From: Candidatus Saccharimonadota bacterium
GTDB taxonomy: Bacteria; Bacteroidota; Bacteroidia; Cytophagales; Amoebophilaceae
Reading direction: 5' to 3'
Assembly (NCBI RefSeq): GCF_965196625.1
Contig: NZ_OZ239769.1
Coordinates: 90,001-122,000, forward strand
DNA: 32,000 nucleotides
Below, in pieces: positions 26,927-27,224 of this stretch. The notes beneath the pieces were generated by a model that worked only from the letters and a program-made list of their open reading frames with translations, was not told the DNA's origin and did no database searches. The position numbers were made by a program, and so were the translations under genes. The first letter of the stretch is position 1, and every line of letters starts with the position of its first letter.

Positions 26927-27224
26927 ATGATTATGAACAGATTAAATAGTTTTAGATCGGTTAGCCTCGATAGGGGAGCAATGGAGCGTATAAGGAGGAA
27001 TAAATCAACCAAATCCACAAACTGATGGTTGTGCAGGAAAGATACTTAAGCAGGCAGTAGTAGGTGAAGCTGCGGATGGGCTTAGGAGTGCAGTCCGTGA
27101 TGCAGCAAAATCTGATACTTTTAAACAGTTCAAGGAGAATTGGAATAAAGCTTGGCAACAACAGGCTGACATAAATTATATGGACTTACAATTAAGGTAT
27201 CCAAATGTACAACCAAAGAAGTAA
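26927..27224 (+). pseudogene. Candidate double-glycine-leader peptide precursor, split between two frames at the GG site
   Basis: Frame A (26927-27025) reads MIMNRLNSFRSVSLDRGAMERIRRNKSTKSTN*. Frame A+1 is open from 26994 to the TAA at 27222-27224. It reads GGINQPNPQTDGCAGKILKQAVVGEAADGLRSAVRDAAKSDTFKQFKENWNKAWQQQADINYMDLQLRYPNVQPKK and has no usable start codon. Joining the frames at 26992/26994 gives ..SLDRGAMERI(x)GG|INQ.., with hydrophobic residues at -4, -7 and -12 as in GG leaders. Confidence 0.35.

What the first reader, a model, noticed from the sequence alone, without database searches (positions are those of the whole stretch)
26927..27224. Hidden GG-leader precursor candidate whose leader and core lie in different reading frames
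No ORF in the supplied track covers the plus strand here, and both listed ORFs are antisense. An ATG-initiated leader-like peptide, M(IM)NRLNSFRSVSLDRGAMERI.., is in one frame. The next frame is stop-free for 77 codons in AT-rich DNA. That frame begins exactly with GGA GGA (26994-26999), giving GG|INQPNPQTDGCAGKILKQAVVGEAADGLRSAVRDAAKSDTFKQFKENWNKAWQQQADINYMDLQLRYPNVQPKK. The fused peptide would read L(-12)..M(-7)..I(-4).G(-2)G(-1), which is the hydrophobic spacing C39 peptidases recognise. The location fits a structural gene: downstream of the CPBP gene and upstream of the exporter. The junction (ata-a-gga-gga, 26990-26999) needs removal of 1 nt or addition of 2 nt. The candidate is therefore a recently inactivated precursor, a sequencing error, or a coincidence. 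The 74-aa helical, charged, single-Cys core resembles no bacteriocin I recognise.
Basis: inference. Interest (0 to 1): 0.72.

Follow-up and report, generated by a model that had tools for sequence, protein, structure and literature searches.

The report
Frameshifted double-glycine peptide precursor pseudogene
A small gene for an exported peptide in an insect endosymbiont (Cardinium) lost two bases just before its cleavage site, which split its export leader and its mature part into different reading frames, so it is an ordinary, recently broken gene in a decaying secretion locus.

Summary
The window comes from the Cardinium endosymbiont of Nabis limbatus (Bacteroidota). An ATG-initiated leader, MNRLNSFRSVSLDRGAMERI, lies in one frame at 26933-26992. 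A stop-free GG + 74-codon frame lies at 26994-27221, one base out of register.

The decisive evidence is a relative whose exporter is 87% identical (contig L022). It carries an intact, in-frame 78-aa gene, MNKLGNYNPVRLDSGAMERIVGG|IDPQAG... The leaders are clearly homologous (z = 13.8; 0 of 5000 shuffles reach the score). The DNA alignment places a 2-nt gap in the window inside codons -4/-3: CGTAT--AAGGAGGAATA against CGTATCGTAGGGGGAATA.

The core frame has gene-like codon usage and GC1>GC2>GC3, but on its own it shows no significant similarity to anything.

The locus is decaying around an intact C39 peptidase/ABC exporter:
- an IS256 element sits between the precursor and the downstream CPBP gene;
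- that CPBP gene is frameshifted;
- a DUF1703 gene nearby is in fragments.

AGGAGG is not a ribosome-binding site here, because 0 of 18 genes have one.

Verdict: a recently inactivated double-glycine-leader cargo gene, from an orphan family with three loci known. A sequencing error is not formally excluded. Programmed frameshifting is unlikely. Interest is modest.

The parts
26933..26992 (+). Leader-coding segment, MNRLNSFRSVSLDRGAMERI, residues about -23 to -4. The probable start is ATG 26933; ATG 26927 would add two residues (MI).
   Evidence: Searches give the sequence. One search shows that the ATG of L022 aligns with 26933. Searches show leader homology to P0159 (z = 13.6-13.8; 0 of 5000 shuffles reach the score).
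26990..26999 (+). Frameshift junction ATA-A-GGA-GGA. It carries a 2-nt deletion relative to the intact relative (ATC GTA GGG GGA), which destroys the codon for residue -3.
   Evidence: DNA alignment A1, the blastn match 26933-27006 to L022 5022-4947, and a BLASTP alignment that crosses the junction.
26994..27224 (+). Double-glycine cleavage motif (GGA GGA) followed by a 74-codon core, INQPNPQTDGCAGK...NVQPKK, and a TAA stop. This part is now out of frame with the leader and has no start codon of its own.
   Evidence: One search gives the translation. Searches give codon log-odds of +17 bits and GC by codon position of 0.57/0.38/0.26. Searches show that GGI[N/D]..NPQ aligns with P0159 and P0160.
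27529..28862 (+). IS256-family insertion sequence (transposase at 27613-28827), inserted between the precursor and the downstream CPBP/exporter genes.
   Evidence: Pfam Transposase_mut, E = 3.8e-120. Terminal inverted repeats at 27529-27566 and 28825-28862. Named an IS256 family transposase in RefSeq.
28911..29635 (+). CPBP (Rce1-like) gene 2, the probable immunity-type partner of the precursor. It is frameshifted inside the conserved EExxxR motif at about 29294-29327.
   Evidence: tblastn with the CPBP proteins of L022 and L025 switches frame at 29294. Pfam matches only the second half.
29713..31902 (+). Intact peptidase-containing ABC transporter with Peptidase_C39, ABC_membrane and ABC_tran domains. 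It is the expected leader-cleaving exporter.
   Evidence: Pfam, NCBIfam bacteriocin_ABC and NHLM_micro_ABC1, and an exact match to WP_419241523.1.
31915..32000 (+). Start of the HlyD/AprE-like adaptor gene, which runs off the end of the window.
   Evidence: The N-terminus MEHSKLTLRSIVIQEILGYIPHWMIRWG matches the N-terminus of the 420-aa gene downstream of the exporter in L022. A Beta-barrel_AprE Pfam hit (weak or faint) is on record only for the equivalent genes in L023/L024 and L025; none is on record for the L022 gene.
25714..26589 (+). CPBP (Rce1-like) gene 1, intact and upstream of the candidate.
   Evidence: Pfam Rce1-like, E = 9.4e-20. The RefSeq protein WP_419241898.1 is a version with a shorter start.

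Best explanation
This is the remnant of a gene for a ribosomally made, exported peptide with an N-terminal double-glycine leader. When intact, the roughly 98-aa precursor, MNRLNSFRSVSLDRGAMERI-x-GG|INQPNPQ...QPKK, would be recognised through the hydrophobic leader positions L-12, M-7 and I-4. The C39 peptidase domain of the neighbouring ABC transporter would cut it after GG. The 74-aa mature peptide would then be exported with the HlyD-like adaptor. An adjacent CPBP membrane protein would act as the immunity-type or processing partner.

In this Cardinium strain, a 2-nt deletion in the codon for residue -3 put the leader and the GG+core in different frames. The only translatable product is therefore a 30-32-aa peptide without a GG site, and the gene is dead.

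The inactivation looks recent. Neither half has acquired a further lesion, and the core keeps gene-like codon usage.

Shown here: the frames, the leader homology, the 2-nt gap, the domain content of the neighbours, and the other lesions in the locus.

Inferred: cleavage and export by this transporter, the immunity role of the CPBP protein, the activity of the mature peptide, and that the deletion is real rather than an assembly error.
For: - Source and neighbours: the window is from the Cardinium endosymbiont of Nabis limbatus. The neighbours are CPBP genes, an IS256 element and a C39-ABC exporter.
- Intact homolog: the closest exporter relative, P0040 (87% identical), lies on contig L022. That contig has an intact 78-aa GG precursor (P0159) directly upstream of a CPBP gene.
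- Homology across the junction: BLASTP of the repaired window peptide against P0159 gives 41% identity over 69 columns, E = 4e-9, and the alignment runs through the junction. tblastn against all fetched loci gives E = 1e-5.
- Leader-only homology: z = 13.6-13.8, with 0 of 5000 shuffles reaching the score.
- Weaker leader matches: gapless, register-preserving similarity to GG peptides at three more Cardinium-clade loci, L023 (z = 5.3), L025 (z = 4.4) and L015 (z = 3.0).
- The lesion: the DNA alignment shows a 2-nt gap in the window at codons -4/-3, with GGN GGA ATA conserved after it.
- Register: a profile from distant GG leaders gives +7.4 to +8.2 bits for the 2-nt repair and -13 bits for the 1-nt-removal version.
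- Coding signal: the core frame scores +17.1 bits, against a real-gene mean of 21.2 (sd 8.5) and an off-frame maximum of 13.1. All five other frames are negative. GC by codon position is 0.57/0.38/0.26, against 0.48/0.35/0.33 for genes.
- Decay around it: an IS256 element at 27529-28862, a frameshifted CPBP2 and a DUF1703 gene in at least 3 fragments. In contrast, 18 long genes in the window are intact, and all ten that were looked up (eight of these plus the transposase and one more) match database proteins exactly, nine of them RefSeq entries. This argues against a generally error-prone assembly.
- No competing feature: no Rfam family matches the region.
Against: - The core alone has no significant similarity to P0159 or P0160 (z = 1.4 and 0.5).
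- The core also has no match among 5.8 billion proteins, 1.84 billion representatives (two spurious repeat proteins only), GTDB species genomes or JGI metagenomes. That the core was ever a functional mature peptide therefore rests on codon usage, the open frame and the short GGI[N/D]..NPQ match.
- The codon score is not unique. One antisense stretch, 27133-27354, scores 0.183 bit per codon.
- Neither Pfam nor NCBIfam recognises the leader.
- Reads were not available, so an assembly error at the junction cannot be excluded.
- No expression or peptide data exist.
Confidence: 0.8

Rival explanations
1. The gene is intact in the organism, and the missing 2 nt are an assembly or consensus error.
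For: Leader and core each carry no other lesion. The core keeps gene-like codon usage. The exporter is intact. In L022, an assembly with only 4.2x coverage, the paralog P0160 also shows frameshifts, which may be errors.
Against: The junction CGTATAAGGAGG is neither a homopolymer nor a dinucleotide repeat, so a 2-nt consensus error there would be unusual. Eighteen long genes in the window read through without frameshifts, and all ten looked up, nine of them RefSeq proteins, match exactly. The same locus carries an IS insertion, a frameshifted CPBP gene and a fragmented DUF1703 gene, which fits real decay.
Confidence: 0.1
2. Programmed +1 ribosomal frameshifting at AUA-AGG-AGG joins leader and core during translation, so the gene is functional as it stands.
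For: Frame 2 to frame 0 is a +1 shift. From my own knowledge, tandem AGG-AGG codons cause +1 shifts in E. coli when the cognate tRNA is limiting. No second lesion is present in either half.
Against: - The relative's gene is simply in frame, so the arrangement is not conserved.
- A +1 slip would give ...ERIGG, with I at -3, or ...ERIRG. Both break the leader register. The ERIGG version scores -13 bits against +7 to +8 for the repaired version.
- AGG is not a rare codon here: it supplies 28 of 238 Arg codons.
- tRNA-Ile cannot re-pair on UAA.
Confidence: 0.03
3. AGGAGG is a Shine-Dalgarno site, and the core is an independent small gene with a non-canonical start codon such as ATA 27000.
For: A perfect AGGAGG lies at 26993-26998, directly at the head of the open frame.
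Against: None of 18 genes in the window has even a 4-nt SD core within 20 nt upstream. This agrees with the known weak use of SD sites in Bacteroidota. The spacing to ATA is 1 nt. There is no ATG/GTG/TTG in frame before 27180. In the intact relative the same bases encode the GG cleavage site.
Confidence: 0.02
4. Only the leader is a gene remnant. The 76-codon open frame after it is chance or unrelated sequence brought in by rearrangement, not the original core.
For: Core-only similarity to the relatives is not significant. Stop-free stretches of this length are common in the window. The locus has been rearranged relative to L022.
Against: DNA homology continues past the gap through GGA GGA ATA. 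GGI[N/D] and NPQ sit at the same offset as in P0160. The codon score and GC1>GC2>GC3 are gene-like and specific to this frame. GG-leader families typically keep their leaders while their cores diverge, as seen across L015, L022, L023 and L025.
Confidence: 0.05

Closest known systems
Double-glycine (GG) leader peptides exported by peptidase-containing ABC transporters (PCATs). This covers class II bacteriocins and class II microcins, and in Bacteroidota the bacteroidetocins (PMC6671954, PMC12219008).
   Same: - A short N-terminal leader that ends in GG, with hydrophobic residues at -4, -7 and -12.
- A gene cluster with a C39-ABC exporter, a HlyD-like adaptor and a membrane-protein partner.
- A conserved leader with a variable core.
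   Different: - The core (74 aa, hydrophilic, GRAVY -0.93, pI 9.2, one Cys) matches no described bacteriocin or microcin family. Pfam and NCBIfam models do not detect it.
- The host is an obligate intracellular arthropod symbiont.
- This copy is frameshifted.
P0159 and P0160, unnamed 78-aa and 62-aa peptides on ENA contig ERZ26858887 ctg226697 (L022), from a Cardinium-like genome.
   Same: - The leader, LD[SR]GAMERI-x-GG.
- GGI[D/N] and NPQ at the start of the core.
- The Ala/Gly-rich central stretch.
- The neighbourhood: CPBP genes and a PCAT that is 87% identical.
   Different: - P0159 is in frame and 55 aa after GG.
- The C-terminal halves are unrelated.
- The gene orientation within the locus differs.
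GG-motif small secreted proteins with non-antibiotic roles, for example the cyanobacterial biofilm-related peptides (PMC4997328).
   Same: GG secretion motif plus a PCAT exporter. The cargo is not obviously a membrane-active toxin.
   Different: No sequence relation. Function in Cardinium is untested.
CPBP/Abi (Rce1-like) proteins encoded next to class II bacteriocin genes as immunity factors (my own knowledge; the name appears in bacteriocin papers such as PMC8692603).
   Same: In L022, L025 and this window, a GG precursor sits directly upstream of a CPBP gene on the same strand.
   Different: An immunity function has not been shown in Bacteroidota or in Cardinium. The downstream partner here is a pseudogene.

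Membership tests
Double-glycine-leader PCAT cargo peptide | An N-terminal leader of about 15-30 aa that ends in GG (or GA/GS), followed by the mature peptide in the same reading frame. | tested here: not met
   The leader (frame 2) and the GG+core (frame 0) are 1 nt out of register. The feature is met only after two bases are restored, as in the relative P0159. The locus is therefore a pseudogene of this kind, not a working member.
Double-glycine-leader PCAT cargo peptide | Hydrophobic residues at -4, -7 and -12 (and -15) relative to the cleavage site. | tested here: met
   With the 2-nt repair the residues are I-4, M-7, L-12 and V-14. A PSSM built from 15 independent GG leaders gives +7.4 to +8.2 bits, which places it in the top 4 of 25,466 window 16-mers. 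The alternative register gives -13 bits.
Double-glycine-leader PCAT cargo peptide | Genomic association with a C39-peptidase ABC transporter and an adaptor protein. | tested here: met
   The PCAT lies at 29713-31902, with Peptidase_C39 E = 8e-37. The HlyD-like gene starts at 31915. The same association is seen in L022, L023 and L025.
Double-glycine-leader PCAT cargo peptide | Homology to a leader of an intact precursor. | tested here: met
   Against P0159, z = 13.8 with 0 of 5000 shuffles reaching the score. The pairwise BLASTP E-value is 4e-9.
Double-glycine-leader PCAT cargo peptide | Cleavage after GG and export by the transporter. | not testable with these tools
   This needs biochemistry or peptide mass spectrometry.
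Curated GG-leader or bacteriocin models (Pfam and NCBIfam/TIGRFAM precursor families, including the Bacteroidota GG families) | A score above the family cut-off. | tested here: not met
   The repaired peptide gave no Pfam hit at E up to 0.01 and no NCBIfam hit at E up to 10; the native 32-aa peptide was scanned against NCBIfam only, also without a hit.
Bacteroidetocins / class IIa-like bacteriocins | A conserved mature-peptide sequence with a disulfide-forming Cys pair. | tested here: not met
   The core has a single Cys. Protein searches found no similarity.
Programmed +1 frameshift gene | The out-of-frame junction and the slippery or hungry-codon context are conserved in homologs. | tested here: not met
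   The only clear homolog is in frame: ATC GTA GGG GGA.

The most novel reading that the evidence does not exclude
The gene is not dead. Ribosomes shift +1 at AUA-AGG-AGG and make a low level of leader-GG-core fusion. Cardinium would then export a previously unseen 74-aa helical peptide through its PCAT/type I system into the host cell or against co-resident symbionts, with the frameshift acting as an expression throttle.
Probability: 0.03. Interest if true: 0.6.

Novelty: new member of a known kind. Interest (0 to 1): 0.33.

Why it matters
On its own this is a broken gene in a genome known for IS elements and pseudogenes. Its value is indirect.

A 2025 review of Cardinium notes that type I secretion systems are predicted in some strains but that their role is unknown (PMC12342168). 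This locus and its relatives (L022, L023, L025, L015) show that the 'T1SS' ABC component is a C39 peptidase-containing exporter. They also show that small GG-leader peptide genes, unnamed in the database searches here, lie next to it, paired with CPBP genes.

That yields concrete candidate cargo peptides for an obligate intracellular symbiont, with cores that turn over quickly and are repeatedly lost. Whether they target competing symbionts or the host becomes testable. No paper in the searched library links Cardinium to bacteriocin-type peptides.

Tried and rejected
- Protein homology for the repaired peptide: nothing at E up to 10 among 5.8 billion proteins.
- Exhaustive HMMER search of the core against 1.84 billion representatives: two hits only, both long internally repetitive proteins with many weak stretches. 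I judged them spurious.
- A family profile (A2) recovers only the two L022 peptides.
- tblastn-type scans with the core found nothing in GTDB species genomes or JGI metagenomes. The profile scan of the metagenomes also found nothing.
- Pfam and NCBIfam do not match the peptide.
- Rfam finds no RNA family at 26500-27700.
- The sigma-70 promoter and terminator scan is no better than shuffles, and it is not appropriate for Bacteroidota anyway.
- Exact-protein look-ups to retrieve the source contig or independent assemblies failed. I could therefore see neither the deposited annotation nor any read-level support.
- The AlphaFold model of the core, built from a 3-sequence alignment, has low confidence (mean pLDDT 61.9, pTM 0.30; two helices at 11-38 and 41-68). 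I did not use it for fold search.
- The Shine-Dalgarno reading of AGGAGG is rejected, because 0 of 18 genes have an SD core.
- The 1-nt-removal repair is rejected on the register score and the DNA alignment.
- I withdrew the claim that the core is homologous to the core of P0159 after the shuffle test.
- A regex scan found no other GG-leader ORF in the window.

Full report
**Source and setting.** Ten long ORFs of the window match database proteins exactly. Nine of these carry RefSeq accessions of the Cardinium endosymbiont of Nabis limbatus; the 291-aa CPBP form is on record without an accession, and its 228-aa RefSeq version is WP_419241898.1. All come from the 1,158,289-bp chromosome. Cardinium belongs to Bacteroidota, family Amoebophilaceae, and is an obligate intracellular symbiont of arthropods. 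The end of the window containing the finding carries these features:

| Feature | Coordinates |
|---|---|
| Fragmented DUF1703 gene (AAA-ATPase_like + PDDEXK_9) | 23388-25498 |
| Intact CPBP/Rce1-like gene | 25714-26589 |
| The candidate | 26927-27224 |
| IS256-family element, terminal inverted repeats at 27529-27566 and 28825-28862 | 27529-28862 |
| Second CPBP gene, split by a frameshift | 28911-29635 |
| Intact ABC exporter with Peptidase_C39, ABC_membrane and ABC_tran domains | 29713-31902 |
| Start of a HlyD-like adaptor gene | from 31915 |

**The observation.**
- A 32-aa ATG ORF, MIMNRLNSFRSVSLDRGAMERIRRNKSTKSTN, lies at 26927-27025.
- The next frame is open from GGA GGA at 26994 to 27221, which is 76 codons. 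It is bounded by TAA at 26991-26993 and TAA at 27222-27224.
- That frame has no canonical start codon before 27180.
- Only antisense ORFs are listed across the stretch.

An open frame of this length is not rare by itself. The window holds 52 stop-free stretches of at least 76 codons, many of them shadows of real genes.

**Coding signal.** I built a codon log-odds table from 18 long genes of the window.
- The proposed core frame scores +17.1 bits. The other five frames score -20 to -72 bits.
- Real-gene windows of the same length average 21.2 bits (sd 8.5). The best of 2,640 off-frame windows reaches 13.1 bits.
- Per codon the core scores 0.225. This ranks 3rd among 124 stop-free stretches of at least 50 codons that lie outside the training genes. 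The two above it are the IS256 transposase and a DUF1703 pseudogene fragment.
- GC by codon position is 0.57/0.38/0.26, the same ordering as in genes (0.48/0.35/0.33).

This supports coding but is not decisive. An antisense stretch at 27133-27354 scores 0.183 per codon.

**The decisive comparison.** The fused peptide, the core and a family profile found nothing significant in the large protein libraries or the contig collections. I therefore went through the exporter instead.

Its closest relatives are P0040 (87% identity, an ENA metagenome contig), P0041 (77%) and P0042 (73%, Cardinium of Culicoides punctatus). I fetched their loci.

Contig L022, which carries P0040, has a called 78-aa gene at 5022-4786(-), directly upstream of a 309-aa CPBP gene. 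Its product is MNKLGNYNPVRLDSGAMERIVGG|IDPQAGFLKEGIKFVGGYLASKALDATGSAAKSTDWKEHDRQIQERMEKNMRDHL.

- **Leader.** The window's leader, MNRLNSFRSVSLDRGAMERI, aligns with it without gaps. Smith-Waterman gives a score of 61 and z = 13.6-13.8, and 0 of 5000 shuffles reach that score.
- **Across the junction.** BLASTP of the repaired window peptide against the L022 peptide gives 41% identity over 69 columns, E = 4e-9, and the alignment runs through the junction.
- **DNA.** The window reads GGAGCAATGGAGCGTAT--AAGGAGGAATAAATC. L022 reads GGAGCAATGGAACGTATCGTAGGGGGAATAGATC. The difference is a 2-nt gap in the window inside the codons for I(-4)/V(-3), with GGN GGA ATA (G G I) conserved after it (blastn).

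The leader and the GG+core were therefore once one reading frame. The lesion is a 2-nt deletion, not a 1-nt insertion.

**Independent support for the register.**
- The window's leader shows weaker but register-preserving, gapless similarity to GG peptides at three other Cardinium-clade exporter loci: L023 (z = 5.3), L025 (z = 4.4) and L015 (z = 3.0). In each, the residue aligned with the window's last Ile is at -4.
- A PSSM from 15 GG leaders, built without the two closest homologs, gives the 2-nt-repaired peptide +7.4 to +8.2 bits. That places it among the top four of 25,466 16-mers in the window. The 1-nt-removal version scores -13 bits.

**What is not shown.** The core alone is not significantly similar to the core of P0159 or P0160 (z = 1.4 and 0.5).

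Only its first residues line up: GGINQPNPQTDG against GGMDKANPQAG and GGIDPQAG. This pattern of a conserved leader with divergent cores is usual for GG-leader families. It is also visible among the Cardinium-clade loci, whose cores are mutually unrelated.

It still means that the coding status of the core rests on three things: continuity of the DNA alignment across GG-I, codon statistics, and the open frame. The AlphaFold model of the core suggests two long helices but has low confidence (pLDDT 61.9). The peptide would be hydrophilic and mildly basic (GRAVY -0.93, pI 9.2, one Cys). That is unlike typical membrane-inserting class II bacteriocins.

**Mechanism.** The steps below follow from established knowledge of double-glycine leaders and peptidase-containing ABC transporters. 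They are inferred, not shown here.
- The intact precursor would be bound through its amphipathic leader by the C39 domain of the exporter.
- It would be cut after GG and exported with the HlyD-like adaptor.
- The CPBP protein encoded directly downstream would serve as the immunity-type partner.

Precursor-then-CPBP pairs occur in L022 and twice in L025. By that rule, the window's precursor belongs with the downstream CPBP gene 2, which is also the CPBP copy most like the one paired with P0159 (45.6% against 35.2% identity). In this strain the pair has been hit three times:
- the 2-nt deletion in the precursor;
- the IS256 insertion between the two genes;
- a frameshift inside the EExxxR motif of CPBP2.

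The frame-2 product ends ...ERIRRNKSTKSTN without a GG site, so nothing exportable is made. No other GG-leader ORF is present in the window. The exporter is intact, so its remaining cargo, if any, must be encoded elsewhere in the genome.

**Rival readings.**
- *Assembly error.* This cannot be excluded without reads. However, the junction is not a homopolymer or a repeat, the housekeeping genes of the window are intact and exact, and the neighbouring lesions indicate real decay. I give it about 10%.
- *Programmed +1 frameshifting at AUA-AGG-AGG.* This is unlikely, about 3%. The relative's gene is in frame, the shifted product would have the wrong leader register, and AGG is not rare here (28 of 238 Arg codons).
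- *AGGAGG as a ribosome-binding site.* Rejected. None of 18 genes has even a 4-nt SD core upstream, and in the relative these bases encode the GG site.
- *Known RNA family.* Rfam finds none in the region.

**Comparison with what is known.** In kind, this is a double-glycine-leader cargo gene of a PCAT system. The same kind includes the class II bacteriocins and microcins, and in Bacteroidota the bacteroidetocins (PMC6671954, PMC12219008). GG-motif secreted peptides with non-antibiotic roles also exist (PMC4997328).

It is not a member of any curated precursor family. The family defined here has three loci in two genomes: this pseudogene, P0159, and the apparently frameshifted P0160.

Literature on Cardinium in the searchable library mentions no bacteriocin-type peptides. 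A 2025 review states that type I secretion systems are predicted in some strains and that their role is unknown (PMC12342168).

**Verdict.** It is a new, dead member of a known kind. Its interest lies mainly in pointing to unnamed GG-leader cargo genes beside the Cardinium exporter.

Noticed in passing
window 23388-25498: A DUF1703-type gene (AAA-ATPase_like + PDDEXK_9) is broken into at least three fragments in two frames, compared with the intact 659-aa homolog at L025:14660-16639. This family is known to be expanded in Cardinium cCpun (PMC6387759).
   Followed up: partly
window 28911-29635: The second CPBP/Rce1-like gene is frameshifted exactly inside its conserved EExxxR motif: ...YEDFFF|FRGILQN. 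It is the CPBP copy most similar to the one paired with the intact precursor in L022.
   Followed up: yes
L022:6648-6880: A second precursor paralog (P0160, 62 aa as called) continues in another frame with a C-terminal part 74% identical to that of P0159. It is therefore also frameshifted, or it is a consensus error in a contig with 4.2x coverage.
   Followed up: partly
L025:5275-5559 and 11951-12136; L023:3231-3491(-) and 7950-8210; L015:10927-11163: Other Cardinium/Amoebophilaceae exporter loci carry GG-leader peptides with unrelated cores. Some cores are Cys/His-rich, one gene lies next to a radical SAM gene, and one lies between two ~500-aa genes that look trypsin/PDZ-like by eye (no domain search was run on them). 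Together these suggest a diverse, unnamed cargo repertoire.
   Followed up: partly
window, 18 gene starts: None of 18 long genes has a GGAG, GAGG or AGGA motif in the 20 nt upstream of its start. This is consistent with SD-independent initiation in this Bacteroidota symbiont.
   Followed up: yes
window 27529-28862: A complete IS256-family element, with 38-nt imperfect terminal inverted repeats, sits 49 nt upstream of the CPBP2 start. This probably uncouples CPBP2 and the exporter from upstream transcription. The flanks are T-runs, so I could not define a clean target-site duplication.
   Followed up: partly
L015:2641-4410: In an Amoebophilaceae MAG, the homologous exporter lacks its C39 peptidase domain and is split into two ORFs. 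This is another decayed copy of the system.
   Followed up: no
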